Source of the DNA: a virus
DNA: 64,000 nucleotides
IMG/VR virus record: IMGVR_UViG_3300036832_000827
Coordinates: 4,916-68,915 of that record
Strand: one strand, 5' to 3'
Shown here: in pieces, positions 4,566 through 55,078 of the stretch
Position numbering within the stretch: the stretch's first letter is position 1
How the letters are laid out: each line of letters begins with the position of its first letter
Made by a program: the position numbers and the translations under genes
The notes under the pieces: model-generated
What the model was told of the DNA's origin: nothing
What the model saw: the letters and a program-made list of their open reading frames with translations, nothing else
Databases searched by the model: none

Positions 4566-4938
4566 TTGATTTCTCCTTATCTTTTTGGGTAGCGGCTTCA
4601 GTTAAAAATTCGGCAGCGACTGCGGGCGGCATCCTCTCGGGCGGTCTGTCAACCAGGCCGTCGCGTTTCTGCATCTCGTGAAATATCGCTTCTCTCGGAC
4701 TGACAATGCGGACGCCGGGCGTCGTTCTCGGCTGCGGCGGCGGTTGTCCGCGCGGGGCGTTCGGTATCGGATAATTCGGTGTAGGTTCGCCTGCGAGCGT
4801 GTCGTAGATCTTCTCGGGCTTTGGTTTGAACTCGATCTTTTCGGCGGCGCGCCCACGGCGTTCGCCAAGGAGGTAACCGACCGCAAATAGCAAAATGCCA
4901 ACTGCTGCCGCGAGCGCCGTGATCGTCCAGTTTTCCAT
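4540..4938 (-). CDS. Hypothetical membrane-anchored protein, 132 aa
   Basis: N-terminal hydrophobic helix (ITALAAAVGILLFAVGYLLG); first gene after the leader RNA. Confidence 0.6.
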   Translation of the reverse strand: MENWTITALAAAVGILLFAVGYLLGERRGRAAEKIEFKPKPEKIYDTLAGEPTPNYPIPNAPRGQPPPQPRTTPGVRIVSPREAIFHEMQKRDGLVDRPPERMPPAVAAEFLTEAATQKDKEKSNGYNRQEG

Positions 4939-4944
4939 TGCCCT

Positions 4945-5033
4945 AAAAAAAGAAATCGCCGCCCGGCGACCAGCGTGTTTATCACTGGTCTTTGGACGGC
5001 GATGACTCAGATCTGTGCCTGAGTTATGACCGA
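4945..5033 (-). promoter_or_regulatory. Late-operon leader RNA copy 1 (GCACAGAT hairpin followed by terminator hairpin and U-tract)
   Basis: Minus strand TCGGTCATA-ACTCAG-GCACAGAT-CTGAGT, then TCGCCGTCC...GGGCGGCGA-TTTCTTTTTTT; second copy at 54907-55007. Confidence 0.65.
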
Positions 5034-5247
5034 TAGGATATGTTTTTCAAGGGCGACAAGTTAGTGAAGAGACGTTTCATTTATCAAGATGTAGTCCCTT
5101 CGGGCATTCGCCCCTCTGGTTTTTGAAGGGCGCCGGGCTTGTTTCTAAGCAGTCATTCCCATTTTCGTTCTTTGATGCTTAGCTAAAACCCGGACTGCAC
5201 GCCCTCTGGTTTTGGATTATCACCTAGTGTGATACAAAAATGCAACT

Positions 5248-5288
5248 GAAAATAAAAGGGCCGGGAGTCTCCCACACCACCCGGCCCA
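5248..5288 (-). terminator. Rho-independent terminator downstream of the tas/array-1 transcript
   Basis: Minus strand GGGCCGGG...CCCGGCCC followed by TTTTATTTT. Confidence 0.6.
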
Positions 5289-5339
5289 CTTTCAAGGTTG
5301 CGGATTTTGGGGTCCGCACTCCTTGAAAACTTAAAATTG

Positions 5340-5892
5340 CTCGTTCACTGTGTGTGTAAGATCGCGATAATTAACTCGTTCGGACGTTGTGAAATTCAAC
5401 ATTTATAACTCGGTCATTGCAAATGAAATTCGCTCAGTATCACTCGTTCCCCACCTCTGAAATTCAGACTTGCTCACTCGGTCATCTTTCTTGAAATTCA
5501 GTTTTTCTAACTCGTTCTCATGGAATGAAGATCTAAACCCTTTAACTCGTTCTACGTATATGGAATTCTCGTATGCTAACTCGTTCGAATTTCAGGAAAT
5601 TCTTAATTCGTAACTCGGTCGCTGACTTTTGAAGATCGCACTCGTTACCTCGGTCGTCGATTTTGAAGATCAGCCTTGTTACCTCGTTCTATTGCCATGA
5701 AATTCCTTCGGCTGTAACTCGGTCATATATTATGAAATTCCCGCAGATTCACTCGTTCCTCAGTATTGAACATCTGTACAATTCACTCGGTCTTTGACCT
5801 TGAAATTTCCTTTACCATCACTCGTTCTAATTACTTGAAAGTCTCACCATTTAACTCGGTCGTAATATTTGTAACATCACCCTCAATCACTC
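5340..5892 (-). ncRNA. TIGR-like dual-repeat guide array 1 (16 units, ~34 nt period)
   Basis: On + strand alternating t(a/c)actcg(g/t)tc - 8 nt variable - tgaaattc (variants tgaagatc, tgtaagatc) - 8 nt variable; first repeat overlaps the stop codon of the Nop-domain gene. Confidence 0.9.
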
Positions 5893-6756
5893 AAAAGGGT
5901 CGTTCGGCGGCGCGATGTAATCTGCGTGCCCTTGTATCGCAATCGTGTACGGAGCGGCCGGACCCTTACCGAATCTATATCGATAGGCGATCTCGTGCCA
6001 GTGCGAAATAAAGAGTTTGACGGCTTTACGCTTTGCCCTGGCATGGATCTGTGCGGGCGGCAGCTTCCCGCTTGTGTAGTGGCCAAAGGCGTCGGTGTCG
6101 GTGCGGAACTTCTTCTGGCTTAGGATCTTTTTTGCCTCGTCGGCGTAGGCACCGGCGTCGTTTTGGGCCGTGTAGTATTCTTTGGCCTTCAGATAGATCT
6201 TTCCGTAAAAATCTTCTTCGCGTCCGGATTGTTTTACGAACGATTCGCCGATCTTCCAGAACAATACTTTCAGCCGGGCATTGAACGGCCGGCGCTCGCC
6301 TTTTTTCCATTCGACGTTCGGGTTGAGCCCTCCAAAGCTTTCGATATGGCCGGCTGTCGGAGCTTTTTCGATGTCGATATGAGCAAGGAGCCCGGCGGCG
6401 AGTACACCGGCGATCCCGGTTATCGACATCGACCAGCGGCCGACGGCATCGCTCTCCGCATAGGCGGTAAGAGCTCGTTGCAGTTGTTTTTCGAGATAGG
6501 CGGTGTTGTCGGCCAGCCAGCCGATGACGGCATGGGGCGTATCGGCCGCACCCGATGCCCGGACGCGTGCCGCTGCCCGGATGCGCTCTTCCTGGAGCGT
6601 GTAGTAGTAATCGACCAGAAAGCGGATCTCGTCTTTTGAGAGCGTGGCGGTCGAATCCTTGAGGTCTTTTGTGAGTTTAATGATGCCGGCCTGTTCGACA
6701 TCGGGGCCGGGTTCCGGGTCGGCGTATCTGATTTTTGTCGCTGTTGCTGTTCTCAT
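5887..6756 (-). CDS. tasA: TIGR-associated Nop-domain protein lacking a nuclease domain (TasA-like), 289 aa
   Basis: IS110/Nop-like C-terminal region (SITGIAGVLAAGLLAHID...GHIESFGGL...FNARLK...LPPAQIHARAKRKAVKLFISH) preceded only by a coiled coil; no DEDD RuvC or HNH motif seen; abuts the dual-repeat array. Confidence 0.85.
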   Translation of the reverse strand: MRTATATKIRYADPEPGPDVEQAGIIKLTKDLKDSTATLSKDEIRFLVDYYYTLQEERIRAAARVRASGAADTPHAVIGWLADNTAYLEKQLQRALTAYAESDAVGRWSMSITGIAGVLAAGLLAHIDIEKAPTAGHIESFGGLNPNVEWKKGERRPFNARLKVLFWKIGESFVKQSGREEDFYGKIYLKAKEYYTAQNDAGAYADEAKKILSQKKFRTDTDAFGHYTSGKLPPAQIHARAKRKAVKLFISHWHEIAYRYRFGKGPAAPYTIAIQGHADYIAPPNDPFE

Positions 6757-6761
6757 ATTTT

Positions 6762-7091
6762 TTAGTGTTTTGTATTATCCATCTCTTCCAAAAATTCCGA
6801 TAGTTCTTTCTGCATTCGTTCGGCTTCGGTCTCAAAATCCCCCTCGATCACTTTGTCGGCTATCTCCAAAAGCCGGCGGCTGGCGGTTCGATCTTTCGCC
6901 TTGAACACGATGAGCGGTTTTTCAAGCAAGATCGCGAATCCGACTTCAAGGGCGATCTTGATGTCGGCGCTTTTCTCGTTCGGTGCGATCGCGACGACAA
7001 GAGCGGAGTCGACGATCATCGGGCCGACCTCGCGCTCAAAGCGGGCCATGTACTCCATAAGATATTTTTGTTCTTCAGAACCGAAGGGCAT
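6762..7091 (-). CDS. Hypothetical protein, 109 aa (possible nucleoside deoxyribosyltransferase/TIR-like fold)
   Basis: ALEVGFAILLEKPLIV resembles the E-x-G-x-A-x-x-x-x-KP motif of that fold; co-transcribed with tas. Confidence 0.45.
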   Translation of the reverse strand: MPFGSEEQKYLMEYMARFEREVGPMIVDSALVVAIAPNEKSADIKIALEVGFAILLEKPLIVFKAKDRTASRRLLEIADKVIEGDFETEAERMQKELSEFLEEMDNTKH

Positions 7092-7306
7092 CAGGGTATC
7101 TCCGCTCGGAGCGTGCTGGGCGCGATCTCAAATTGCTCGATCAGGACTTTTATGACCATCAGGGCGTCTTCCTCATTCATTCCTTCGAAGGCTCCTGAGA
7201 ATTTGTCTTCCTGGCGCGAAAAAAAGACCGCGCAGATCGCATCACCGTCGTCCTTGGCGAGCTTAACAAGTGGGGCGATAAGCGTGTCATAATATTTGAT
7301 CTTCAT
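7091..7306 (-). CDS. Hypothetical protein, ~71 aa
   Basis: Likely start MKIKYY overlapping the upstream stop (ATGA). Confidence 0.5.
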   Translation of the reverse strand: MKIKYYDTLIAPLVKLAKDDGDAICAVFFSRQEDKFSGAFEGMNEEDALMVIKVLIEQFEIAPSTLRAEIP

Positions 7307-7722
7307 TGAATTTCGTCTATAAATTCCGCATCGAGCGGGTCGCCGCCTGTTACCTGGCGATCTTCGATCTCGCACATATGCTTGACGATCTGCTTGTGTC
7401 CTTCTTCGGCCTGGGCCCACGTTGAATATCGCATCATGATCTCGGCCTTCTGCCCGCGAAAGACGGCAGTTTCAAAAAGCAGCGGCGGCCCGATCCCGCC
7501 GTGGTTGTGATCGAGGCCCAGGAAAACGGTCGAGACAAAAGCGTCTCCGCTCAAGGTCGTTAGAGCAACCTGCCGATCGGCACTCTCGAACCACTCGGCA
7601 GCTTCGAGAAAATCCTCGCATGGAATGGCCTGGCGGTTCTCGTCCAGAACATAGTGCCTAATGCGGAGAAACTGCTGTAGTTCCCTTTGCCACTTTTTGA
7701 GTTCTTCCTGTAGCTGGCCCAT
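7303..7722 (-). CDS. Conserved phage hypothetical protein, 139 aa
   Basis: VSTVFLGLDHN...PLLFETAVF motif recurrent in phage hypothetical proteins. Confidence 0.6.
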   Translation of the reverse strand: MGQLQEELKKWQRELQQFLRIRHYVLDENRQAIPCEDFLEAAEWFESADRQVALTTLSGDAFVSTVFLGLDHNHGGIGPPLLFETAVFRGQKAEIMMRYSTWAQAEEGHKQIVKHMCEIEDRQVTGGDPLDAEFIDEIQ

Positions 7723-8578
7723 TGCCTACTTCTCCGCCGCTTTTTTTATCGGCCGCTTCCGGCTTACTACTGCGCTCCTTTTGTCGTGCTTCTTTTGCTG
7801 CCAGCTTGGCGGCGTCGGTGCCGTACCGGATCGGGACCTTCTTTGTCGTGCCGGAGTTGAAGATCTCTTCTATCATTAAAAGATTTTGGTCGATCTTTGG
7901 CCAGTACTGGAACATGTGTTTGTGCTCTTTCGCCCGCTCCATAAATTTATCAAAATTGAAGCCGACGCGCCCGAGGGCGATCAGCATGGCTTTTACAAAG
8001 ACATCCTGGCGATAGCCGCTCGTGTAGTCCTTAAGCTGGGCGAACATGGCCGCCTTTTTTTCGGCGTCGGCAATATCGGCGACGCGGAACTCGCCTTCGC
8101 GGAAGAGCTTTCGGCTCTCGCGCATGTCGCGTCCGGTCAAAAGGATGACGGCGACCTCATGAGGAAAGGTGTACTTCTTTCGAAATGCCCGATACGTTTT
8201 GTAGTGTTTATTGCCCAGCTCGATAAAGCTTCCGGCGTAGTCCTCATTTGTCCATTGCAGCGTTGTGTTGTTGAGCGTCTGGACGTCGTGGAGATCCATC
8301 TTCTCGCCGAACCGATAGTAGACCGGCAGTGCGAGTTCCCGCCTGGCCTCTAAGGTGTGCTGGCCGTCAACGATCTCAAAGGTCTTGTTGATAACGATCG
8401 GGACTTTCAGGTCGTGCTCCTCGATCTTTGCCTTGATGTTCTGAACATGGCCGAAACGAACAGGCCGGTTCCCCGGCATCCGTTTGAATTTGTCGTATTC
8501 CGTCGTTGTGTAGATCTTTGATTCCGGGTCGGTCGATACAAAAACCCGCTTGGGCGGCGGCGTGCTTTTTGGGGACAT
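7658..8578 (-). CDS. ParB/Srx-like N-terminal domain protein, 306 aa
   Basis: GNRPV...PIVIN...IVDGQH motif; first gene of the tas operon. Confidence 0.7.
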   Translation of the reverse strand: MSPKSTPPPKRVFVSTDPESKIYTTTEYDKFKRMPGNRPVRFGHVQNIKAKIEEHDLKVPIVINKTFEIVDGQHTLEARRELALPVYYRFGEKMDLHDVQTLNNTTLQWTNEDYAGSFIELGNKHYKTYRAFRKKYTFPHEVAVILLTGRDMRESRKLFREGEFRVADIADAEKKAAMFAQLKDYTSGYRQDVFVKAMLIALGRVGFNFDKFMERAKEHKHMFQYWPKIDQNLLMIEEIFNSGTTKKVPIRYGTDAAKLAAKEARQKERSSKPEAADKKSGGEVGNGPATGRTQKVAKGTTAVSPH

Positions 8579-8634
8579 GCTTCAGGATTCTCCTTTTCGT
8601 TTTGCTTGAGAGAGTGGTTGATTTATAAACTTTG

Positions 8635-8741
8635 CTTATATACCGTAATACTACGCACTGTCAATCGGTATTTATACGTATTTTGCCAAAAACCGACATA
8701 TAACACAACTATTGACTGCTAGTTTTTATGTGGTCTATAAT
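8635..8741. promoter_or_regulatory. Divergent sigma70 promoters (tas operon on -, RHH gene on +)
   Basis: Minus TTGACA(8664-8659)-18-TATAAG; plus TTGACT(8712)-18-TATAAT(8736). Confidence 0.6.
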
Positions 8742-8765
8742 GGCTCAAAAATCCCTTTGCGAAAA

Positions 8766-9005
8766 ATGGTAGACGAAACTATGACGAACCCACAGCGAAA
8801 GCGTCCTTCACTGATCGCTTTCAGCGCGGATGACGAAATGATAGATCGACTGAAACGGTTGGCTGCTCAGATGGGCGTGACGGTCTCGGATATTGCACGC
8901 TCGGCCCTTAGCGAGAAGCTGAATTCGCTCGAAAAGGCGATCGAGCGGGGAGAGCGTTTTGAGGTCAGGCGACCGCTTGGCGTGATCTCGCCGGTGGCGG
9001 GCTGA
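8766..9005 (+). CDS. Ribbon-helix-helix (CopG-like) regulator
   Basis: LIAFSADDEMIDRLKRLAAQMGVTVSDIARSALSEKL; start may be 8766 or 8781. Confidence 0.7.
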   Translation: MVDETMTNPQRKRPSLIAFSADDEMIDRLKRLAAQMGVTVSDIARSALSEKLNSLEKAIERGERFEVRRPLGVISPVAG

Positions 9006-9195
9006 CCGACGTTCTGGTGATCTCGAAATTGTGCTTCCAGGCGACGGTGAACCAAAGCCGGCGTAGTTCGGCGTAGATCGGTCTCGCCGTCTCCGCGTCC
9101 TCGCAAAGATCGATGATCGTCCTGAGCTCGACCAGAGCGCCCCGCGCCAGCGTTGATAAGACGAGATCTCGCATTTCCTTTTCGGCGTCGGTCAT
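8965..9195 (-). CDS. Hypothetical protein, 76 aa
   Basis: ORF starts immediately after the 3' end of array 2. Confidence 0.45.
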   Translation of the reverse strand: MTDAEKEMRDLVLSTLARGALVELRTIIDLCEDAETARPIYAELRRLWFTVAWKHNFEITRTSVSPPPARSRQAVA

Positions 9196-9213
9196 TTAGT
9201 TAAAAGTGGAAGA

Positions 9214-9900
9214 CGTTCGCATCTGTTGTAAGATCTTCAGTTATCACTCGGTCAATTTCGATGAAATTCGCCTGCTGTGACTCGGTCGCCGTTAATGAAA
9301 GTCGTTTTCTGTCACTCGGTCACTTTGATTGAAATTCCGTGCGGATCACTCGTTCGTTTCTCCTGAAATTCTCGCGCAATCACTCGTTCGCTTCATTTGA
9401 AATTCTTTAAGAATAACTCGGTCATTTCACATGTAAGATCGGACTTCGTAACTCGGTCGAGCTTCTTGAAATATCAGCATGGATGACTCGGTCACTACAA
9501 ATGAAAGATCGTAATTCCTAACTCGGTCATTGTGTTTGAAGGTCATCTTGTGTAACTCGTTCTATTATCATGAAAATTCTTCGCAGGTAACTTGGTCGCA
9601 TCTTTTGAAATTCACGGGAAATCACTCGTTCATACGCAATGCACTTCGAATCCTGTAACTCGGTCATATTTTATGAAATTCACTTCAGGCAACTCGGTCA
9701 TATATCATGAAATTCATATAACATCACTCGGTCGCACCCTATGAAATTCTCTCGCGTTCACTCGGTCAGCTTTTCTGAAATTCGCTCCAAATAACTCGTT
9801 CGTCTACAATGAAGTTCCCCACTAATAACTCGGTCATATATCATGAAATTCATTCAACATAACTCGTTCCCATTTCATGTAAGATCCTTGTCAATTAACT
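9214..9900 (-). ncRNA. TIGR-like dual-repeat guide array 2 (20 units)
   Basis: Same edge (t(a/c/g)actcg(g/t)tc) and loop (tgaaattc) repeats with 8-nt variable spacers as array 1. Confidence 0.9.
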
Positions 9901-9913
9901 GGCCGCCATTCTA

Positions 9914-10174
9914 TCATTTCCCGCCTAAGATCAGCGATTTCCAATCGGTTCCGCTGCGGGGCATATTTTTTACGAATGGGATGTGATTGTTTGGATAGAC
10001 GACGCGGGGGCGTAGCAGCCGCTTCATGCGTTGGCCAAAGTTGCAGCGGTCGCAAAGCCACTTCAGGCGTGGGTCGAGACCGGGCTCGTTTATTTTGCTG
10101 TGGCACTTTTGGCACCGGATCTCATCATCCGTGACGCGGACCAATGGCTGATCTTTTGGGACCTCTTTTAGCAT
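9914..10174 (-). CDS. Small zinc-finger-like protein, 86 aa
   Basis: CQKC...CDRC; start overlaps the upstream stop. Confidence 0.45.
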   Translation of the reverse strand: MLKEVPKDQPLVRVTDDEIRCQKCHSKINEPGLDPRLKWLCDRCNFGQRMKRLLRPRVVYPNNHIPFVKNMPRSGTDWKSLILGGK

Positions 10175-26203: not shown

Positions 26204-26210
26204 AAAAAAA

Positions 26211-26350
26211 CGTTCCAGGTCTTTGTAAAATCGGACGCGATCACTCGTTCAGTCTTTCTGTAATATCGGCAATCCTCACTCGTTCGTCGTCGCTGTAGTA
26301 TCGGTCTGCTTCACTCGTTCGCAATCGATGTAAGATCCATCTTCTTCACT
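26211..26350 (-). ncRNA. TIGR-like mini-array 3 (4 units)
   Basis: cgttc-8-tgtaaaatc-8-tcactcgttc-8-tgtaatatc-8-tcactcgttc-8-tgtagtatc-8-tcactcgttc-8-tgtaagatc-8-tcact. Confidence 0.85.
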
Positions 26351-26545
26351 AAGAAAATCTATCGCCATCCGTTCTCGCCGGAGCCCGTCATCTTCACTCC
26401 AAAGGCGGGTCGTGAGCTTTGCGATCTCGCTTCGCCGCCGCATGATCTCTGCCCGTCGCAGGTCCCGTTCTTCGCGGGTAAGCTGGGCGTAGTAGTTCTT
26501 CGCCTCGTAAAAATCCATCCGTTTTGGTCTCGACACGTATCTCAT
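26276..26545 (-). CDS. Hypothetical protein whose 3' end runs through array 3
   Basis: Likely start MRYVSRPK (ATGA coupling). Confidence 0.45.
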   Translation of the reverse strand: MRYVSRPKRMDFYEAKNYYAQLTREERDLRRAEIMRRRSEIAKLTTRLWSEDDGLRRERMAIDFLSEEDGSYIDCERVKQTDTTATTNE

Positions 26546-26778
26546 AAATAGATCATCGTGGCCGCGTTTCGGATCTTCATTACCAGCCGGGCGACGGCAG
26601 CTCGTGGGGATGCTCCAAAAGCCATGCCGCGCGAATTTATCCAGGCGCAGCAACGCGTTCCGGTGTTGCGGACCCGCATCTCTCCGAGCGGCGTCTCGAC
26701 CTTTACTCCGCCTGATCGGCGCAGGTTTCGCTCGACGTCGCGAATGATCCTTTCCCACTCCTTGACCGTGTCTTCCAT
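26542..26778 (-). CDS. Hypothetical protein, 78 aa
   Basis: ORF in operon. Confidence 0.45.
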   Translation of the reverse strand: MEDTVKEWERIIRDVERNLRRSGGVKVETPLGEMRVRNTGTRCCAWINSRGMAFGASPRAAVARLVMKIRNAATMIYL

Positions 26779-26983
26779 AAAAACGTAAGAGGCCGACCAT
26801 CTCCAGGATCTCTCCTAAAAACGATCGGCCTTACAGCTTATACAGGCTCAGCTCGCATTCCCCTTAACACCTAGATCTGCTAAAAGCGGAGACGTCGTAA
26901 GTCCCCCAGTTCTCGAAGGCCCTCGGCCCCTCCGCTTCTTCCCCCCGCCTTATTCCTAGTTTCGGCGGGGAAAACTTTTTCGA

Positions 26984-27601: not shown

Positions 27602-28576
27602 TTATTTCTTTTTGGTGGTCGACGGCGGTGGTGGTTCGTCGTCGGTCGTGAGCGGCAACTCCGGTTCGCCTGTCTCCGGTGTCGGCGCTTCGGGAGCCTC
27701 CGGCTCCGGCTTCTCAGGCTCCGGCTCTTGCGGCGTCGATGCCATTCGCTCCTTGAGCCCGGCCATTCCGCCCGATGCCTCAGACTTGGCCCGCGCCTCG
27801 GCCGCCGTCATCAGCGGGAAAGCCTCGTCGACCGTGGTCTGGCCATCCTTGATGGCAGTCGCGTATCCCTTGAGGATAGCGATGTCATCGAGACCTACAT
27901 CGTCAAGCGATGGCCGGTCAAGCGCCGTCAGTATCCGCTCGGGCGTGACACCCATTTTCCCAAAGTATTCGACCACGTTCGCCCGAACACCCGACAACGT
28001 CGACGCCTCGCCGATAGCAACCTGACGCGCGGCCAGAAAGATATCGTTTACGTAAGCCTTCGGGATGACCCGGAAGATGGCGTTCCTCAGCGCGATCGAT
28101 ATCGCCGAATTGCCCGTCACAATTATCATGTCGTCACTGAACCGCATACCGTTCTTGTTCGTGATCTTCCGGCGATTCTGGATGCGGATCGCGATGTTGT
28201 TTTCGAGGTCCCAGCATGTCGCTTCAGCAATGACCTCGCGGTCCGTCTCGCCGGCTACACGCGACTCGACACGCAGATTTTTCCACGCCGATGCGCAGAT
28301 TTCCGCCAGCCGGACAGATGGCCCGGTGATGGGCTTGCCTGCTCGCGGCAAAGTGTACATGCACGACGCGGCCGTCGCCTCGTCAAGCGTCGCCATCTCA
28401 ACCGCCTTCTCCTTGAACGCCTTGATCGAGCGCGGATACTTGAGAGCTGTCGAGATCTGGATGTCGACCTCCGACGAATTGATGACCATCGGGAGGCCTT
28501 CGTTCCCGTTCTGGTTTCCGACGACTATTGCGTCGTCGATGGTGTCTGTCATTGCAAGTTTTGAAGTTGGGGTCAT
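27602..28576 (-). CDS. Putative single-strand annealing/recombination protein, 324 aa
   Basis: Adjacent to the YqaJ exonuclease; A.KYPR...GPSVRLAE...W.N motif; acidic Pro-rich tail. Confidence 0.55.
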   Translation of the reverse strand: MTPTSKLAMTDTIDDAIVVGNQNGNEGLPMVINSSEVDIQISTALKYPRSIKAFKEKAVEMATLDEATAASCMYTLPRAGKPITGPSVRLAEICASAWKNLRVESRVAGETDREVIAEATCWDLENNIAIRIQNRRKITNKNGMRFSDDMIIVTGNSAISIALRNAIFRVIPKAYVNDIFLAARQVAIGEASTLSGVRANVVEYFGKMGVTPERILTALDRPSLDDVGLDDIAILKGYATAIKDGQTTVDEAFPLMTAAEARAKSEASGGMAGLKERMASTPQEPEPEKPEPEAPEAPTPETGEPELPLTTDDEPPPPSTTKKK

Positions 28577-28584
28577 AATTTTGA

Positions 28585-28656
28585 TCGTTCCTTTTATGTG
28601 TAAAATCTAAGTTCCTAACTCGTTCGTCCAAATTGTAAAATCTGCCTAGATCACTC
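28585..28656 (-). ncRNA. TIGR-like mini-array 4 (2 units)
   Basis: tcgttc-cttttatg-tgtaaaatc-taagttcc-taactcgttc-gtccaaat-tgtaaaatc-tgcctaga-tcactc fills the exonuclease-SSAP intergenic gap. Confidence 0.8.
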
Positions 28657-29595
28657 CTAAGCTGCCTGTCGGCTCGCCTTCTCGCTGACTTTTTTGAATC
28701 GCGTCACGCGGCACGTCGATATCTCGACATAGTCGGCCAGAATTCCCGGATGATCGATGGCCAGACGCTTCCGGTCGATACCCGAACGGTTCTGCTCCAA
28801 AAATGTCACGGTGCCCAGGTCGCAAACTGCTGCTTCGGCATCGGCCATCGCGGTTATCATCGCCGCCTGCGCCGCCTCTGCTTTTTCCTCAGCGATCTTT
28901 TTCGCGGCCTTCTTTTCGAGCCAGTCCATGACCAGAGCATTCGCGATCGGGACCGTACGATTCGGTTCGCGCCGTACGCGTTTTAATATCTCTAAATGCG
29001 GCTGCATGTTCGTCGGCGGGATGTCCGGCACGACATGCTTATTCCAAAACTCGTCGGCACGTTCGCACATTATGTCTACGACCTGTTTGTCCCACGGCAC
29101 AAGAAACCTGGCGAAGCCTCGGCCGCCGATGAACGCCGCGACACGGCACGTATCGAAGCTGGTACATATCATGTGCACAAGCGACTGAATAAGAACGCGC
29201 TCGGGCACGACATCGCTGTCGGTGTCTCCCCAGCGTTCGCCCGAAAAGAAAAAGAGACCCGTCGTCTTTGCCTCGATCGGCTGACCCGTCGCACGTACTA
29301 AAGCGTCGACGTTCGAACCCATCGGGAATGGCAGGCCCTTCGCTACGCGGTACTGGTTTCGAATGATCTCTCCGAACTCTCGCTCTGCGTACTGCAAAAC
29401 TCCGTCTTCAAAAAATGTTCCGGCAAGCAGCGGGTCATGGTCGCGCAGGTTTCGCCCGTCGTCTGCCAGCTTTCCCGTCTTCTCCAGCCATACATCTGAA
29501 GCGTTCCGGCGCGGATCGAATCCTAATATCGCAGCCATATCGGATGACCCGATGCGGCCCTGTCGTGATGCTCTCTGTAGTTCAGTTATCGGCAT
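28657..29595 (-). CDS. YqaJ-like viral recombinase/exonuclease
   Basis: R...IGSSD.AAILG...WLEKTG; G..FE; SNVDA...IEAKT; Q...HM; likely start MPITEL. Confidence 0.85.
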   Translation of the reverse strand: MPITELQRASRQGRIGSSDMAAILGFDPRRNASDVWLEKTGKLADDGRNLRDHDPLLAGTFFEDGVLQYAEREFGEIIRNQYRVAKGLPFPMGSNVDALVRATGQPIEAKTTGLFFFSGERWGDTDSDVVPERVLIQSLVHMICTSFDTCRVAAFIGGRGFARFLVPWDKQVVDIMCERADEFWNKHVVPDIPPTNMQPHLEILKRVRREPNRTVPIANALVMDWLEKKAAKKIAEEKAEAAQAAMITAMADAEAAVCDLGTVTFLEQNRSGIDRKRLAIDHPGILADYVEISTCRVTRFKKVSEKASRQAA

Positions 29596-29636
29596 AAGTT
29601 TTGTAAGATCTTTCCTTTTTTGGAATTTAGTTTTTT

Positions 29637-29843
29637 TTAAGAATCGAAGGCCACGGCCACTTCGCTCGTTCTTTGCCTTGCGAGCCATCTCGCTATTCGC
29701 GGATCGGCCTGCATCCGTTCAAGTTTTTCCTTCAGCGCCTCGCGTATTATTTGCGCTTCAGGTATGTCCAAAATATCCGCATAATCCCTGAGCCGTTTTC
29801 GTTCGACCTCGCTTATCCGGGCGGCTACTTGTGTGTTCCTCAT
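29637..29843 (-). CDS. Cro-like RHH regulator
   Basis: VAARISEVERKRLRDYADILDIPEAQIIREAL; promoter TTGACA-16-TACAGT at 29891-29918. Confidence 0.6.
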   Translation of the reverse strand: MRNTQVAARISEVERKRLRDYADILDIPEAQIIREALKEKLERMQADPRIARWLARQRTSEVAVAFDS

Positions 29844-33268: not shown

Positions 33269-36200
33269 TTATCGTGCTTCCTTGGCCTCTTGACGGCGCA
33301 TAGCTTCCCGTTGGGCTCTGATGGCGGCTCGTGCCTTCTCTCTTTGGACGGCAGTTTTCAGTAGACGCGGGAAAGCTATATCGAGTGCTGACTTAACGAA
33401 TGCCAGGCCCTCGCCTTTTGTGAGTTCCTGCTTCTTGTCGCGGTTGACGCCCAGGCTGTGCATGATGTCGCCAAGCGCCGGGTTGAGATCCAGGCCTCCT
33501 TCGAGGATGTGGCGGCCGATGCCGGCAGTCTTCGGCAGATCAGGTGGTTTGAAAAATTGGGCTCCATACTGTCCTTCGCGATCTCGAAGGGCCATGAGGC
33601 TCGGTTCGTATCCGGTCGCTGCTATCGATGCCGCCCTTACGACCGGTGAGCTGGTCAACGGGCCCGCTATCGAGTTGATCGTGCCGGTCGCTCCCGATTC
33701 GAGCATCTGCTCTTTTGATCCGCCAAGGATCGCCGTGTCGTACGCTCCTGAGATGCCGAGTGCTCTCGCCCCTCTTTCGACGAGCGGCGAGAACATCCCC
33801 AGTCCGACGTAGGCGGTCTTGTCATTGTCGCCCCATATCATTTTCGCGAGCGGTGAGTTGCGGTCCTTCGGATTTAGCGGGATCTGCAAAAAGCGGCTGT
33901 CCTTGTCATTCCAGGGCATGACTCCGCGATAGGCGTAAGACGCTGCCGCCCACATCCCGAGCATCCCCAGTACGCCCCCGGAAAACTGCTGTTGAGCTCG
34001 ACGAGCCATACGCCAGCCAGGGCTTAGACCTTCGGTTGGCAACGGCGTTTTATTTAGCCATCCCAGGACGCCGTTCTTTAGCATCTGGCTGCCAGCGGTA
34101 AAGAATGGGGCTAGTTGCGAACCTTTGAGCGATCGTGACAGTTGCGATTCGAGAGCACGGTTATAGATCCCGAGCTTCTGCACGAATTCCGCTTTCTCAT
34201 AGCGCGATGCGTTGGGGTTGATCGTTTCGGCAATTTTCCACATCACGATGCGAGAGCGCGTGTCGATCCCTTTCGGGCCTGTCAAAAACGGCCTGATCGG
34301 ATTCCATGTATGCTCGATCCCGAGTTGTGCAGCCAGCTTTTTCGAAAACGTCTTGTTGGCGAACTCGCTCGGAAACGCGCCGCTTTCGGCCATGTCCCTA
34401 AGCATGGCGGGGTCGCCTTTTAGCGGGTCGGTCATCGCCACATGGATGATCCCAGTAAGGATCTTTGTCGCCGGTGTATTGCCGATCGTGCGTGAAAGAA
34501 TATCCTGGCCTATGAATGGCGTTCCGCCGATAAGTCCGCCGACGAGATTCGCTGTATGGTAAATGGGCTCAAGAAGTCCGGTAGCACCAAACATGTTTAG
34601 CCGATTGAGTGTTTTGTTGACGATATTTGGGTCGTCCGGGTGTTCGAGCACGGGCTTTAGTTCCTTTGCCAGCCACTTCGGCACGGTGTACGGAACATTG
34701 CCGATCCGAAGGAAAGTCGTTGGTTGGCCCATGATCTCCGATGGCGGCTCGGCACCCGGCTTTAACGGTTTAGCGAGTCCCGCTATCTCCACCGAATCCT
34801 GCAAGTCGCTCATGTTCTGGTCTCTCAGGGCCTTTGCGATCTCAGGTGTCGGATTGGCTCCCGCGAGTATCTGCGCCTGGATCTGAGCGGTGGTCGTGGC
34901 ATACTTGACGACCTCGTCGGCCGCTTCCGGATCGACGTGGCGCAACTCGTTGAGGTTTTTGTTTACGAAGTTCTCAAGCGAGCGGGCCGACCTCATCACC
35001 TTGCCGCTCGTCAAGGCGTCATCGAGTTTGCCGAGGATCTTACGGGTAGCTGAGAAGCTTAATTTTTGTTGTACAGGACGTGTTTCAGGAACCTTTCCTT
35101 GTTGAAGTTCGGATGGCTGGGGTCGACCTTCACCATAAGCCGCTTGGCCCTGGCCGCCGCCTGGTCCCCGTGTTTCTCCCCGATCTCGTAGCTCAGTAGG
35201 AACTTGGCCTTTTCCTTCGGACTCCATCCCTGGGAGATGGCCTTGAGATTCGCTAGTGCGGCTTCTTTGCTCATATCGTTGAATTGCTTTTTCTGTTTGT
35301 TTACTGATGCCGCCAAGGGCTTGTCTGACCCGCTCTGCGGTTACGCCTTCAGAGCGTAGGTGCTTTTCGTATGCTAATTGTAACTCAGCAACCTCTCTGC
35401 GCGTCAAACCGAGATCGAGATGGCCGTCATCCCGATAGGCTTTGTTCATGATCTCTTTATACATGCCGGCATCGGAGATGTTCCGGTAGCTGGGCACGGT
35501 TCGTAAATTGGCCTCAGCTTTCTTGTAGGCCTGAAGTCCTCTGCCTTTGTCCGATATTTTGCCGCCTAGCAGTTCCTCGTGGGCTTGGTGAAATCGCTCT
35601 TCCTGGCGGGTTCCTTCGGACAGCGTAGGATAGTTCTCATCGACCAGACCAGTCGGAAGACCGTGTTCAGGGTGAACATTATCCTCAAAGGTCTTGATGA
35701 TCCGATCGAGGCCGTCGGCCATTTCGGGATGCTCCTTGCTGACAGAATCTCGCGCCAGCTTCAGCGCGTTGGTTACGTCTGCAACGTCTGCCGGCAGCAT
35801 CTGAAGTCCCAGGAACCTCTCGTCTGGCTCTACGCCGCCCAGTCTTCTGAGGAGGCGGTGCATTAACTCCAAGGCCGGTACGTTCATCTCGATCATCGGA
35901 CTTTTTGGATCTTTGGTGAACGTGGCGTCTCGCAGCAATTCACTATCCTTCTTATCCGCCAGGCCCGCTTGTTCCTGCCTAAGCTGATCGACCTCCTTGT
36001 TATAGTTTTCGATATGAGCCCGGTCCTCGGCCGGAGTCTCGGGTTCGGGAAGATGTTCGGCCGCATTGAAATTGATGTCGCCGGGGGTGATCGTCCTGTC
36101 ACCTTTGGGAGGCCTGAACAGATCTGACTGGGCCTCTTTCCGAGAGCTCTTCGCCAGGCCCTCTTCTGTTTCCCGCTTACCGATCTCGCCGATGTCCGCG

Positions 36201-39200
36201 ACCGTGAATCCCCCCTTGTCGCGAAATAGGGCGAGTTCCTTACCGGGATTCTTCTCTTGAAGCTCGGTTAATTTTGCTTTGGCGGTTGCCTTATCGGTCG
36301 GTTCTATGAGGCGATCGATCCTCTCGGGCGCGAATGGCGTCTCTTCGGCCTTGGTCTCGGGTTCGATCCGCTCGGCCGCATTGCTGTCTGCGATCTTTTT
36401 GAATTGCTCTGGCGTGAGTAGGTGGACATCTCCAGCCTTATTTTCGAGTTCGACCTTTCCCTCATCGTTGATGCCTTCAAAACGATAGGTGCCTTTCGGG
36501 AGGCCGGAAACGTCGCGGTTGGTCGCGATGCGATCGCCTTCCCGGAACTCCGTCCCTTTCTTTGTGGTGATCGCTGCCTCGGCTGGCTTGGTGACGGCTG
36601 GCTCTTCTCTCGGTGCTTCGGCCTTTGAGACTTCGGGCGGCTCGGTCACTTTCGCCGATGGCTCGGCGGGCTTGGCTTCGACTTGGCCCGTTGCCTCATC
36701 GACAAATTTATAGATCGCGTCGATCGCATTGTCGCGGGCCTCTTCGGATTTGAAGTAAAGGGTCTTTGTACGGTCGTTGGCAAAGTCCAGTTGGAGCCCG
36801 GCGTTTGCAACACCTTCAATCTGCGCTTTTCCGCCTTTTGTGATCCCGGTAATTGATGTCGGCTTTTCTTCTGAATAGGAAATACCCCTAAAGTTCTCTG
36901 GATATTCGCTAAGAAATCCAAGAGCGTCATTGTTTTTAGCTCCGAGACCGTGAAGGGCGCTGTTGTCAAGGCCCTCGATGTCGCGGGCCATTATTCGTGG
37001 TTTTTGAGTCGATGGCTCGGCAGGCTTCGCGGCGCGTTCGGCTGCTGCGGCCTCGAACGTCTGACCAGGTGTGGACAGAAGATCCTTGGGGTCCATCTTC
37101 CCACTAAGGATGTCGTCGATGGCTGCGGCGTCCTTTTCAGGATCGAGATGGTATTTCTTGATTAGGTCGGCGCGGCGTGTCGCCTCATGCTCAGCCTCAA
37201 CGGCGGCAGCTTTCTGCTCGGCGATCGTCGTGGTCGGCTTCCCTGGCTTGGTTTCTTCGGTGGTTTTTAGTTCTTCCGGCTTTCCAGCTCGTGCCTCAGG
37301 CGATCCTTCCTGATCTGGCCGCGAAGCTTGTTTATCCTCTTGTTTAGGGCCTCGCTGTCCTGTCTCATCTTCAAGTTCCCTTCTTTCAATGATCTCTCTA
37401 CGAGCTTGCTGATATATCCGGTCGAGGTTGGTTTCCTTGAGGGGTTTTCCATTCGCTAAGAGACTATCATAGAGCTCCGACTTCTTAAAGCCCTTAATGC
37501 TGTCGTGCGGCAACGGGTCTTCCTCTGTCCCATATTTTGCTATAACGTCCTTCAGCCAGCCTGGGAAAAACTTACCTTCGCGAAAGGGAATGATCTGGTT
37601 TGTTATGAACGCATCGGCGGCTTGAATGGTGTCCAGAAATGCATCGGCGGTCTTGCCGTCTTTAGGCAGCGCGTCACGGTGATTGGCAATCCAGTCAAGC
37701 CACTCTTCGGGCGTCATGTACGACGAGCGCTCCTTGCCGAACTGCTCCTGGGCCATCTTGTCGCGGAAAGCGGAAAACGCTGTTTTGAAAGCGGCGTGGT
37801 CGGCGTCGGCCGGCAACGCGTGGTCTCCCAGGCCGATCGCTTTAAGTAGCTGGTTGACCATCTTGATGCGGTCCGCCTTCTCCGCGTCGGGCATGGCTCC
37901 TTCGAGGCCAAAGCGGTCGATCATGTAGTTGTTGACCATCCCGTGAGGTCCGGGTATGGGCAATTCTTTAAGTCCTTTGACCTGGTCGACGGAGATCCCT
38001 AATTTCTCCGCGATGGCGTCGTCCGTCTTGCCGTCGCGCTTCATCCGGCGCGCTTCTCTTGTGGCCTCTGGCGTGAGTGGCTCGGGTTTGCCGGGAAAGA
38101 GTCCTGGCACTTCGCCAACTCCGGCACCCACGGTCGCGGGTTCGCCTTCCTTGGCAGGTTCGGGTTTTACTTCTTCAGCTTTAGGGGTTTCAGCGGCGGG
38201 GGCTGCGGCAGTGGTCGCGGCGCCGGGGGCGGTTTCGGCTCGTTCATGATCTGCGCGTGGTTCGTTCTCAAGATCCGGCCCAGCACCCTCGGGCTGAACT
38301 CCCTGCCGTGCTTCGTTATAAGCCTGGAATATCGCATCGCCGTGGGTAGCTCCACTTTCGGCGTCGGTGGCAAGGGGTTCAAGGCCGTGTTCGAGCTGCT
38401 TGTCGTCGTAGGCTTGTCTAAGTCGTCTGACGTCGGGGTCGGATTCGTTGAATCTGAGGTTGCCATTCGGGTCATAGTCTACTCCTTCGTCGTTATCGAT
38501 CCTATCGCGTATTTCGTCCAGGATCTTTTGAGCTTCCGGGTCTTGGAGAAAGTTCTTCGTGCTCCGGATCAGCGCGGCCTGTCTTCGGGCGTACTCTCCT
38601 GCGGCTTCCGGAGCGTTGTCACGCTTGCGGACATATTCCTCTTCGGCTGCGGCGTAGTCGGTGTTGTCGTAAAGCTTCTCGAAATCATCCTTCGAAAAGT
38701 GCAGGCCGCGTCCCGTTTCCTTGTGACTGGCGACGTCGTCTTCGATAGCCGTCCACAACTGATTGCCATTGGCATCTCGTCGGTCGGGCCAGAGGTCGCG
38801 CAGGTAGCCGGCATCCCAGGCCATCACGGCCATTTGCTCGGCGGTAAAGGGCGCGTTTTGGTTCTTAAGGCCGGAACTGCCGGTCTCTTTGTCCGACAGA
38901 CGCCGGCCCTCGCCGCTGTCTCGTGATACTGGTCTGATCCCGCTTTGCCCGTCTCGCTTCTGGCGCACCCATTGGGAAAGCGACTTGACTCCCTGCGGCA
39001 CGGGCGGCTGCGTTTTGCCGCCTTCTTCGGTGCCGGGTCCGCCCATTGCCCATGGCGGGACTTCTTCCTCTGTTGGCGGCTTCGCAGGTTCGGCTGCGAT
39101 TTCCGCTTCACCCTCAGATGGGACGTGTATTGGAAGCGATGCGTGTGCGGTGGGTGTGATTTTGTCGCCTTCTGGCCTCTCAAAGTGAATTATCACATCT

Positions 39201-54906: not shown

Positions 54907-55007
54907 AAAAAGAAAAAGCCGTCCGCGAAATACGAGATGACGGCTGTCGAAATCATCTCTTATTCGAGAACGGCGAAAGTTTAGATCTGTGCCTAAACTA
55001 TGACCGA
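54907..55007 (-). promoter_or_regulatory. Late-operon leader RNA copy 2
   Basis: TCGGTCAT-AGTTTAG-GCACAGAT-CTAAACT, then GCCGTTC...GGACGGC-TTTTTCTTTTT; upstream TGGACA-16-GATAAT promoter near 55048-55075. Confidence 0.65.
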
Positions 55008-55078
55008 AAACAATCTTGTCAATTACTACTGACTGTCGCCTGCTAAATTATCACGGCTTGCGCGCCCTTGTCCATACA

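What the first reader, a model, noticed from the sequence alone, without database searches (positions are those of the whole stretch)
5340..9900. Reconstructed guide targets look like promoters: candidate programmable transcription repressor
Seen: spacers are ~38-39% GC by hand count, clearly lower than the surrounding coding DNA. Joining spacerA + revcomp(spacerB) gives -10-like hexamers, several only ACROSS the junction: ATTG-TACACT-CAGTAT (5759-5782), GGAAT-TACACT-ACAAA, AGGGTT-TATCAT-GGAA, GAAAAAC-TATCTT-TCT, AATGGT-GATAAT-TACT. Others give extended -10s (TGG-TAAAGT, TGC-GATAAT) or -35s (TTGACAAG..., TTGCGC, TTGCAA). TACACT-CAGTAT resembles this phage's own early promoter pattern TAnTCT-TAGTAC. 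Inference: with no nuclease, the protein may silence promoters of competing phages or host genes in a CRISPRi-like way. The join order is assumed from TIGR geometry, and AT-rich 16-mers contain such hexamers by chance fairly often.
Basis: partly seen in the sequence, partly recalled or inferred. Interest (0 to 1): 0.85.

Follow-up and report, generated by a model that had tools for sequence, protein, structure and literature searches.

The report
Phage TIGR-TasA guides, promoter claim unsupported
This soil phage carries a known kind of RNA-guided DNA-binding system (TIGR arrays, a nuclease-free TasA and a ParB-like partner), and the promoter-like look of its 42 guide targets is what their AT-rich make-up gives by chance.

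Summary
The arrays are real. There are 42 dual-spacer units in four arrays on the minus strand, 36 of them in the two arrays of the finding. They flank an operon that ends in a 289-aa nuclease-free Tas protein and starts with a ParB-like gene. This is the tasParB-tasA type of TIGR locus described in 2025.

The listed hexamers are present, and spacers are 40.5% GC against 56% for the phage. But -10-like hexamers are no more frequent in cognate joins than in shuffled A/B pairs (12 of 40 against 8.9±2.0; other measures p>0.15), than in letter shuffles, or across 1162 guides of 91 related loci.

Low spacer GC is a family trait: 66 of 74 loci show it.

No target was found in the phage, in 124 related loci, or convincingly in public viral contigs, where exact hits lie mostly inside genes.

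One guide, only in its cognate join, reproduces a complete NrdR operator; this is a lead, not a proof.

TasA acting as an RNA-guided repressor is already shown for another TasA in a 2026 preprint.

This scan has met TIGR-TasA loci on other DNA before. Verdict: new member of a known kind.

The parts
5249..5287 (-). Rho-independent terminator after array 1: a G+C-rich hairpin followed by a T tract on the minus strand.
   Evidence: Read directly. Its inner part was found by the scan. A like hairpin with a T tract follows the downstream array of relative L045.
5337..5892 (-). TIGR array 1, downstream of tasA, with 16 units of 34-35 nt. On the minus strand each unit reads edge repeat GAMCGAGTKA (10 nt), spacer A (8 nt), loop repeat GAATTTCA (8 nt; some units have the 9-nt variant GATCTTACA) and spacer B (8 nt). 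The first, truncated edge repeat overlaps the tasA stop codon.
   Evidence: The strand follows: arrays lie on the tasA strand in 93 of 124 related loci and on the opposite strand in 0.
5887..6756 (-). tasA: a 289-aa nuclease-free Tas (Nop-domain) protein with the tigRNA-processing pair Y270/H277.
   Evidence: NCBIfam NF052498 TIGR_Tas_endo scores 186.9 bits against a cut-off of 100. PDB sequence hits are 9mty_A (TasR, E 5e-7) and TasH (E 9e-6). The AF2 model with 50 sequences has pLDDT 87.4 and is all-helical. Foldseek top hits are TasH 9w04 (E 3e-7) and TasR 9mty, followed by the IS621/IS110 recombinases. Y270 is conserved in at least 90% of 50 family members and H277 is invariant. They lie 7 residues apart, as do Y289/H296 of SpTasH.
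6762..7091 (-). Small ORF (109 aa) of unknown function between tasParB and tasA.
   Evidence: phrog_18163, E 8e-17. No homologue in the 124 related loci by tblastn.
7091..7420 (-). Small ORF (up to 109 aa; it overlaps the next ORF, so the true start is uncertain), function unknown.
   Evidence: A homologue is found only in L045 (54% over 70 aa).
7303..7722 (-). Small ORF (139 aa) of unknown function, conserved in the ParB-bearing relatives.
   Evidence: tblastn hits in L045 (55%), L034/L054 (38%) and L043 (43%). No family hit.
7658..8578 (-). tasParB: a 306-aa ParB-like protein (ParB/Srx-type motifs GNR and DGQH) and the first large gene of the operon.
   Evidence: phrog_12305 'ParB-like partition protein', E 8e-27. 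G36 N37 R38 and D71 G72 Q73 H74 are invariant in 17 relatives. Homologues lie upstream of tasA in L045 and L034/L054. The complex with TasA is predicted with score 0.64 against a best control of 0.00.
8712..9005 (+). Divergent ribbon-helix-helix (CopG/RelB-like) regulator gene.
   Evidence: Pfam RHH_1, E 1.7e-5. phrog_7325 CopG-like repressor. A homologue sits at the same place in L045. A promoter-like site with 11 of 12 matches lies at 8712-8741.
8965..9195 (-). Small ORF (76 aa) directly downstream of array 2, function unknown.
   Evidence: Homologues in L045 (69%) and L034/L054 (46%).
9209..9902 (-). TIGR array 2, upstream of the operon, with 20 units of 34-35 nt and the same repeats as array 1. 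On the plus strand it begins with a degenerate edge repeat and ends with a truncated one.
9908..9916 (-). Putative extended -10 element (TGATAGAAT on the minus strand) just upstream of array 2. This is inference only.
   Evidence: Pattern hit and sequence read. No expression data are available.
26206..26352 (-). TIGR mini-array 3 with 4 units, a 9-nt loop variant and GC-richer spacers (56%). It overlaps the 3' end of ORF 26276-26800(-).
28581..28656 (-). TIGR mini-array 4 with 2 units, in the gap between the RecE-like exonuclease gene (28657-29688) and the next gene (27602-28576).

Best explanation
The stretch is a phage-borne dual-repeat TIGR system of the tasParB-tasA type. Four arrays hold 42 guides and are transcribed on the minus strand.

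TasA most likely cuts the precursor in the edge repeats with its conserved Tyr/His pair, giving 34-35-nt tigRNAs (inferred). [quoted passage not shown] The site reads spacerA + revcomp(spacerB).

TasA has no nuclease, so the outcome is binding: blocking transcription or replication, probably together with the ParB-like partner that the model places on TasA (inferred).

The promoter-like hexamers in the rebuilt targets follow from the low G+C of the spacers. Low spacer G+C is a general trait of this Tas family. It is not a specific aim at -10 or -35 elements. What the guides bind in nature is still unknown.
For: Identity:
- The curated Tas model is passed.
- Sequence and fold match solved TasH and TasR.
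- The model is all-helical, with no HNH or RuvC hit.
- A ParB-like gene lies in the operon.
- Faure et al. 2025 describe tasParB-tasA operons with dual-repeat arrays upstream, downstream and between the genes (section read).

Strand: 93 of 124 related loci have arrays on the tasA strand and 0 on the other. A terminator follows array 1 on the minus strand.

Processing pair: Y270/H277 are conserved and spaced as SpTasH Y289/H296.

Geometry: the published 'C - 5 rule' with 8-nt 3' overhangs fits only the join A + revcomp(B) (my derivation).

Repression by a nuclease-free TasA and by dead TasR or TasH is shown in reporters.

TasA-TasParB: score 0.64 with best of 3 controls 0.00. That mark was reached by 58 of 80 solved complexes and 2 of 110 mismatched pairs. 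The runs agree in at least 0% of contacts, the partner's pLDDT is at least 72, and one of the three runs scored 0.00.

Composition rather than promoters:
- Cognate joins are not richer in -10-like hexamers than shuffled pairs or letter shuffles.
- In 1162 unique guides of 91 loci, z is -0.1 to 0.5 against within-locus pair shuffles and -1.9 against letter shuffles.
- Spacer GC is below locus GC in 66 of 74 non-redundant loci, by 6.5 points on average, p 2e-12.
Against: Some promoter-flavoured signals remain.
- GATAAT occurs in 3 of 42 guides against 0.55 expected (P 0.016, chosen post hoc).
- Matches of 5 or more of 6 to the -10 consensus exceed GC-matched 16-mers of the phage (7 against 3.1, P 0.03).
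- With gaps of up to 2 nt allowed at the junction, near-matches in the phage's own genome number 12 against 5.7±2.4 (1.3% of 300 shuffles reach 12). Two of them, from neighbouring guides (9529, 9563), fall in the intergenic region before a late operon (55007-55053). Five of the 12 come from the GC-rich array 3, which the shuffle control does not model well.
- The guide at 9529 rebuilds a full NrdR operator only in its cognate join.

This spacer set is 15 points below the phage GC, more than the family mean of 6.5.

No RNA data exist for this locus, so transcription, processing and the 34-nt length are all inferred. The 34-35-nt unit departs from the 'fixed 36-nt' guide said to place the cut within reach of the Tyr/His pair, so processing could differ here.
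Confidence: 0.75

Rival explanations
1. One reading: the guides are selected to sit on promoters (-10/-35 elements) of competing phages or host genes, so the system is a natural CRISPRi-like promoter silencer.
For: TasA lacks a nuclease. Repression by another TasA is shown experimentally, and dead TasH represses from a promoter or an ORF site. Spacers are AT-rich. GATAAT occurs in 3 guides against 0.55 expected. That hexamer also forms the -10 of the two putative late promoters I read at about 5216 and 55047. The guide at 9563 resembles the late-promoter region at 55039-55053 except for one substitution and a 1-nt indel. One guide equals an NrdR operator.
Against: The shuffled-pair, letter-shuffle and family-wide tests show no enrichment. 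-10-like words are if anything depleted family-wide (z -1.9). Exact IMG/VR hits of two promoter-looking guides lie in ORFs of 100 aa or more in 12 of 13 and 40 of 49 cases, in unrelated low-GC phages. No guide lies within 3 mismatches of the phage's four own early promoters. No matches beyond chance were found in 124 related loci.
Confidence: 0.12
2. The guides mark DNA for the ParB-like partner. TasA-tigRNA would act as a programmable loading or anchoring site (an RNA-specified parS) for TasParB, which then spreads, bridges, segregates or silences the bound replicon. The function would be replicon inheritance or exclusion of rival elements, not promoter occlusion.
For: The ParB-like gene heads the operon and is kept, with synteny, in the two related phage contigs L045 and L034/L054. 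The predicted TasA-TasParB complex passes its controls (0.64 against 0.00; conditions as given). Faure et al. note the association and found that TasR drives plasmid loss rather than blocking entry.
Against: The ParB-like protein has DGQH where I recall canonical ParB CTPases carrying a GxxR motif, and no Pfam ParB model is hit at E<=0.01. So CTP-dependent sliding is not shown. Only 3 of 124 Tas loci (2 distinct contigs) carry this ParB type at E<=1e-5, so TasA works without it in most relatives. No target replicon is known.
Confidence: 0.1
3. The arrays are largely neutral or decaying. Units arise by tandem duplication and drift, and most guides have no present target.
For: No target was found anywhere. 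Near-duplicate units exist: 9700 and 9836 share spacer B and differ at 2 of 8 positions in spacer A. Neighbouring units share repeat variants. Loop length varies between 8 and 9 nt within one array.
Against: Repeat ends, 8-nt spacer lengths and the TasA processing residues are well kept over 42 units. Related loci share some guides and have replaced others: L021 and L101 share 18 of 42 and 40. That looks like active turnover. Missing targets are the rule for 16-18-nt guides from metagenomes.
Confidence: 0.03

Closest known systems
tasParB-tasA dual-repeat TIGR loci (Faure et al. [quoted passage not shown] S14 not seen)
   Same: A nuclease-free TasA in an operon with a ParB-like gene. Dual-repeat arrays lie upstream and downstream, the edge repeats are 10 nt, the setting is a phage, and a terminator follows the array.
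   Different: Units here are 34-35 nt with an 8-9-nt loop repeat, not 36 nt. Three small ORFs lie between tasParB and tasA. Two extra mini-arrays lie 17-19 kb away in other operons. I could not see fig. S14 or table S1, so this very contig or its clade may already be listed there.
MbTasA and catalytically dead TasR as RNA-guided transcription repressors (Xu et al., bioRxiv 10.64898/2026.09.09.750476)
   Same: A Tas protein without nuclease activity, and the proposed outcome of binding that blocks transcription.
   Different: Those proteins use stem-loop tigRNAs and lack the Tyr/His processing loop. This TasA uses dual repeats and keeps that loop. Their targets were designed reporter sites. Natural targets are unknown there as here.
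SpTasH of Salicola phage CGphi29 (PDB 9W03/9W04; PMC13421893)
   Same: Phage-borne dual-repeat arrays with 8+8-nt spacers (16 nt in all) and a Tyr/His pair 7 residues apart for tigRNA processing. It is the best structural match (TM about 0.6).
   Different: SpTasH carries an N-terminal HNH nuclease and cuts DNA. This protein starts about 30 residues before the coiled coil and has no nuclease. Sequence identity is 17-18%.
Nuclease-free CRISPR systems that act by binding (type IV, type V-M), as cited in the discussion of Faure et al. 2025
   Same: An RNA-guided effector on a mobile element that interferes without cutting.
   Different: The protein fold is unrelated (Nop against Cas). The guide is split and reads both DNA strands, no PAM is needed, and no adaptation genes are present.

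Membership tests
TIGR-Tas (dual-repeat, TasA class) | Tas protein with the Nop-type RNA-binding domain and coiled-coil dimerisation helices | tested here: met
   NCBIfam NF052498 scores 186.9 bits against a cut-off of 100 over residues 44-257. Foldseek top hits are TasH and TasR with probability 1.00. Long paired helices span 41-70 and 76-101 in the model.
TIGR-Tas (dual-repeat, TasA class) | Array of two alternating short repeats (edge, loop) separating two short spacers per unit | tested here: met
   42 units with a 10-nt edge, 8-nt spacer, 8-9-nt loop and 8-nt spacer.
TIGR-Tas (dual-repeat, TasA class) | Box D-like start and box C-like end shared by edge and loop repeats (UG...CCA in TaTasR; GA...CCA in most relatives fetched here) | tested here: inconclusive
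   Both repeats start with GA, as in the relatives. They end in UKA (edge) and UCA (loop) rather than CCA. The shared letters are fewer, and no structure or binding data are available.
TIGR-Tas (dual-repeat, TasA class) | Uniform 36-nt unit or tigRNA | tested here: not met
   Period is 34-35. Relative L034/L054 also has 34-nt units. The 2026 preprint nt fixed for dual-repeat systems, and '34-nt' occurs 0 times in its main text.
TIGR-Tas (dual-repeat, TasA class) | No HNH or RuvC nuclease domain (defines TasA against TasH and TasR) | tested here: met
   The protein is 289 aa and the model is all-helical with no strands. Residues 1-23 are disordered. There are no nuclease families in Pfam or NCBIfam. 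The alignment to TasR begins at its residue 154 and to TasH at 123.
TIGR-Tas (dual-repeat, TasA class) | C-terminal Tyr/His pair for metal-independent pre-tigRNA processing | tested here: met
   Y270 is conserved in at least 90% and H277 in all of 50 relatives. They are spaced by 7 residues like Y289/H296 of SpTasH. The motif GH.DYI.PP aligns with TaTasR. Activity was not tested.
TIGR-Tas (dual-repeat, TasA class) | Arrays transcribed and processed into unit-length RNAs bound by Tas | not testable with these tools
   No RNA run is listed for this DNA.
tasParB-tasA subtype | ParB-like gene in one operon with tasA | tested here: met
   phrog_12305, E 8e-27. Same strand, 900 bp upstream of tasA, with small ORFs between. 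Kept in L045 and L034/L054.
.
   12 of 13 and 40 of 49 exact IMG/VR hits of two guides lie in ORFs of 100 aa or more. Only 3 of the 42 guides were searched in public collections.
NrdR operator (guide at 9529 only) | 16-bp partly palindromic box with C4, A6, A8, T9, T11 and G13 (PMC13584703, passages read) | tested here: met
   All six positions are met by the cognate join, plus the outer palindromic letters. A full-pattern match arose in 4 of 20,000 letter shuffles and 0 of 20,000 pair shuffles. In 14 of the 80 bacterial contigs read that hold the exact 16-mer, a second box lies 31-33 nt away, against a 0.8% background.

The most novel reading that the evidence does not exclude
Some guides of this phage are aimed at regulatory operators rather than at promoters in general.

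The guide at 9529-9552 specifies, only in its cognate join, a complete NrdR box, the operator that shuts off ribonucleotide reductase genes in most bacteria and in many phages. The held record of this phage (about 85% complete by CheckV) has no reductase of its own. The phage could therefore use TasA to occupy that operator in its host, or in a rival phage, and so re-set the dNTP supply.

The neighbouring guide at 9563 may aim at the late promoter of close relatives, which this phage escapes through an indel.

These would be among the first natural targets proposed for a TIGR-TasA system (an earlier agent report of this scan, unchecked, already proposed satellite targets), and the first case of a phage RNA-guided protein competing with a host repressor for its operator.
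Probability: 0.2. Interest if true: 0.75.

Novelty: new member of a known kind. Interest (0 to 1): 0.33.

Why it matters
The natural targets of TIGR-Tas systems are an open question; both key papers say genuine targets cannot yet be found.

This locus adds a clean negative. With proper controls, the rebuilt targets of a 42-guide phage system, and of 1162 guides of its family, are not promoter-like beyond their base composition. Low spacer G+C is a family trait that should not be read as a sign of promoter or foreign origin.

It also gives three things to test at the bench:
- a dual-repeat tigRNA of 34 nt instead of the 36 nt said to be fixed;
- a predicted TasA-TasParB contact that involves the TasA C-terminal tail;
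- one guide that equals an NrdR operator, which offers a concrete target hypothesis.

Tried and rejected
Structure. The single-sequence AF2 model was useless (pLDDT 39) and was replaced by the 50-sequence model.

Self-targeting.
- Ungapped: no site in the 68.9-kb genome within 1 mismatch for 40 guides. At 2 mismatches there were 2 hits against 1.1 expected.
- With junction gaps of up to 2 nt: a marginal excess. I do not rely on it, because 5 of the 12 hits come from the GC-rich array 3.

Cross-targeting.
- 423 guides against 551 kb of 44 loci plus this genome: 3 one-mismatch hits against 4-6 in controls.
- Our 42 guides against 954 kb of 124 loci, published join: 1 hit at 1 mismatch and 13 at 2, against 0.8 and 22.9±4.3 expected.
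- Same search, other join: 1 and 39 against 1.0 and 23.3±4.9. That excess is partly due to contigs held twice.
- L045 and L054 guides against our genome and the reverse: nothing within 1 mismatch.

Shared guides. 0 of 1713 units of relatives lie within 3 mismatches of any of ours.

Related phages for promoter comparison.
- The 213-aa first late protein has no relative in IMG/VR.
- The leader motif shared by the two late operons has no exact match there.
- tblastn of TasA against GenBank phages found nothing.

Motif tests.
- Palindromy of targets is not enriched: 2 with 6 or more pairs against 0.71 expected, P 0.16.
- In the unbiased hexamer screen the top word occurred in 4 guides against 0.2 expected, which is not significant over about 2000 words.

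Edge-repeat pairing. From the listing I counted by hand a possible pairing between the variable edge-repeat letters of successive repeats. It holds in 11 of 16 and 9 of 20 units, so there is no covariation.

RNA-sense purine bias. Spacers are 57.3% purine here and 54.7% in the family, but the phage's own minus strand is 53.7% purine. I draw nothing from this.

Other blanks.
- PADLOC: no hit.
- Rfam: no family for the arrays, only a sub-threshold Y RNA-like hit at 5048-5118.
- No tRNA in the window.
- No ribonucleotide reductase in the held record.
- No RNA holder is listed for this DNA; one DNA run, the likely source, holds it.
- Host not identified. The genome search gives no relatives for a virus record.

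Limits on what I saw. Supplements of the papers are closed, so fig. S14 and table S1 of Faure et al., which may list this clade, were not seen. For 'not in print' I can only say that 'GC content' and 'AT-rich' occur 0 times in the main texts of PMC12045711 and of the 2026 preprint.

Full report
WHAT IS THERE

The window is a virus record: 68,915 bases, 56% G+C, about 85% complete by CheckV.

Between 5337 and 9902 lie two arrays with a period of 34-35 nt. On the plus strand each unit reads a 10-nt repeat, 8 variable letters, an 8-nt (sometimes 9-nt) repeat and 8 variable letters. Array 1 has 16 units and array 2 has 20.

Two further mini-arrays with the same edge repeat lie at 26206-26352 (4 units) and 28581-28656 (2 units).

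THE GENES BETWEEN THE ARRAYS

All but one are on the minus strand.
- The 289-aa protein next to array 1 passes NCBI's curated Tas model (186.9 bits, cut-off 100). It matches the solved TasR and TasH chains by sequence. Modelled with 50 relatives (pLDDT 87.4), it is all-helical, and its best structural matches are TasH, TasR and then the IS110-type recombinases. There is no room for, and no trace of, an HNH or RuvC domain, so it is a TasA.
- Y270 and H277 are conserved in the family. They lie seven residues apart, like the tigRNA-processing residues Y289/H296 of SpTasH.
- The 306-aa first gene of the operon is ParB-like (phrog_12305, E 8e-27), with invariant GNR and DGQH motifs.
- A divergent ribbon-helix-helix gene sits between it and array 2.

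This is the tasParB-tasA arrangement that Faure et al. 2025 describe in their Methods.

STRAND AND JOIN ORDER

In 93 of 124 related Tas loci the arrays lie on the tasA strand, in 0 on the other strand, and in 31 (mostly short contigs) I found none.

The relatives' edge repeat is nearly the same word as ours read on the minus strand. A hairpin with a T tract follows array 1 on that strand. So the arrays are read on the minus strand.

The published statements that each strand is cut at the fifth spacer position and that the break has 8-nt 3' overhangs fit only a target that reads spacerA + revcomp(spacerB).

THE PROMOTER CLAIM

The frequency of -10-like words is what chance gives.
- Against 1000 shuffles of A/B pairing: junction-spanning matches of 4 or more of 6 are 12 of 40 against 8.9±2.0 (p 0.10). 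All other measures, in both join orders, have p between 0.16 and 0.72.
- Against shuffling letters within each half (42 units): 15 against 17.3±2.7, 7 against 5.9±2.0, and for -35-like words 7 against 4.7±2.0.
- In 1162 unique guides from 91 related loci: z lies between -0.1 and 0.5 against within-locus pair shuffles. Against letter shuffles -10-like words are slightly depleted (z -1.9).

Two nominal signals remain: matches of 5 or more of 6 against GC-matched 16-mers of the phage (P 0.03), and the post hoc word GATAAT (3 against 0.55, P 0.016).

The phage's own four early promoters are not matched by any guide within 3 mismatches.

WHY THE SPACERS ARE AT-RICH

It is a family trait. In 66 of 74 non-redundant loci the spacers are poorer in G+C than the locus, by 6.5 points on average (p 2e-12). 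An earlier report of this scan on another phage reached the same view (e1-5869286), and I tested it independently here. A likely reason is that 16 bp must be melted with only two 8-bp hybrids as payment, but this is inference.

TARGET SEARCH

- Own genome: nothing within one mismatch.
- 954 kb around 124 relatives of TasA: nothing beyond chance, including the two syntenic relatives L045 and L054.
- Guides shared with relatives: none, 0 of 1713 units. Some relatives share part of their sets with each other, which looks like turnover.
- Exact matches in IMG/VR for two promoter-looking guides: 13 and 49. Of these, 12 and 40 lie in ORFs of 100 aa or more, in unrelated low-GC phages.

LEADS THAT SURVIVE

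First, the guide at 9529 rebuilds a complete NrdR box in its cognate join.
- All six positions that the literature calls highly conserved are met.
- A full-pattern match arises in 4 of 20,000 letter shuffles and 0 of 20,000 pair shuffles. The six positions alone arise in about 18-22% of shuffles, and one must also allow for the many operators one might have recognised.
Of the 80 bacterial contigs read, 14 have a second box at the canonical distance, against a 0.8% background. Of the 80 viral contigs read, 8 have one.
- The held phage record has no ribonucleotide reductase.

Second, with small junction gaps allowed, guides 9529 and 9563, which are neighbours in the array, have near-matches 32 nt apart in the intergenic region before a late operon. 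I estimate that this could be chance.

HOW IT MOST LIKELY WORKS

Shown by homology or direct reading: a Tas protein without a nuclease, a conserved processing pair, dual-repeat arrays on its strand, and a ParB-like partner.

Inferred: processing to 34-35-nt tigRNAs, 16-bp dual-strand recognition, and action by binding.

Repression by binding has been shown for another TasA and for dead TasR and TasH.

The complex predictor supports a TasA-TasParB contact. The score is 0.64 with a best control of 0.00; 58 of 80 solved complexes and 2 of 110 mismatched pairs reach that mark; the runs agree in at least 0% of contacts; the partner's pLDDT is at least 72; and one run of three scored 0.00. The contact involves TasA residues 102-111, 257-263 and the C-terminal tail 281-289. 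This is support, not proof.

COMPARISON AND NOVELTY

The locus is a new member of the tasParB-tasA kind. It departs in three ways: the 34-35-nt unit with an 8-9-nt loop (the 2026 preprint nt fixed), the dispersed mini-arrays, and the three small ORFs inside the operon.

The scan has already met TIGR-TasA loci on other DNA, including one with ParB (e1-6007482).

PAPERS AND WHAT I SAW OF THEM

- PMC12045711: outline, sections 4-6, 8, 10, 24, 44 and 49, and passages.
- bioRxiv 10.64898/2026.09.09.750476: outline, sections 5, 10, 12 and 13, and passages.
- bioRxiv 10.64898/2026.08.11.744272: outline and passages.
- PMC13421893 and PMC13584703: passages only.
- Supplements: none seen.

Noticed in passing
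window 9529-9552: The guide of this unit, in the cognate join only, equals a complete NrdR operator. The exact 16-mer is found in at least 120 bacterial and at least 112 viral stretches, often with a second box 31-33 nt away. The held phage record has no ribonucleotide reductase gene.
   Followed up: partly
window 55007-55053 against the guides at 9529 and 9563: Two neighbouring guides have gapped near-matches (2 mismatches each, with a 1-2-nt junction shift) 32 nt apart in the intergenic region upstream of a late operon. That region holds a TGGACA-N16-GATAAT promoter-like site on the minus strand.
   Followed up: partly
window 26206-26352 and 28581-28656: Two mini-arrays (4 and 2 units) sit far from tasA, at gene junctions. 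One overlaps the 3' end of an ORF. The other fills the gap beside the RecE-like exonuclease gene. Array 3 spacers are GC-rich (56%), unlike the rest.
   Followed up: partly
window 15715, 16503, 17558, 18191 (minus strand): Four copies of a sigma-70-like promoter, TTGACA-N17-TAnnCT, each followed by the invariant word TAGTAC and, further on, a ribosome-binding site and a start codon. These are probably the phage's early promoters.
   Followed up: partly
window 4880-5110 and 54907-55007; L045 11660-11800: A conserved non-coding leader precedes the late genes. It is duplicated in this phage and about three-quarters identical in the related contig L045. Rfam gives only a sub-threshold Y RNA-like hit at 5048-5118 (27.5 bits, gathering 97).
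   Followed up: partly
L045 (16.9 kb held) and L034/L054: These two metagenome or viral contigs are syntenic relatives of this phage, sharing the 707-aa protein, arrays, orf76, RHH, ParB-like gene, orf139, tasA, array, terminator and late genes. None of their guides are shared with ours. L054 also uses 34-nt units with an 8-nt loop.
   Followed up: partly
related loci L001-L124: Across the Tas family, spacers are poorer in G+C than their contigs in 66 of 74 loci. Some related loci share part of their guide sets (L021 and L101 share 18 of 42 and 40), which suggests gain and loss of units.
   Followed up: yes
window 33269-43732 (minus strand): A single open reading frame of 3487 aa, not examined.
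   Followed up: no
L045 11420-11495: Directly after the array terminator of L045 lies a stretch that looks like a tRNA gene by eye. It was not run through the tRNA finder. The window itself has no tRNA.
   Followed up: no
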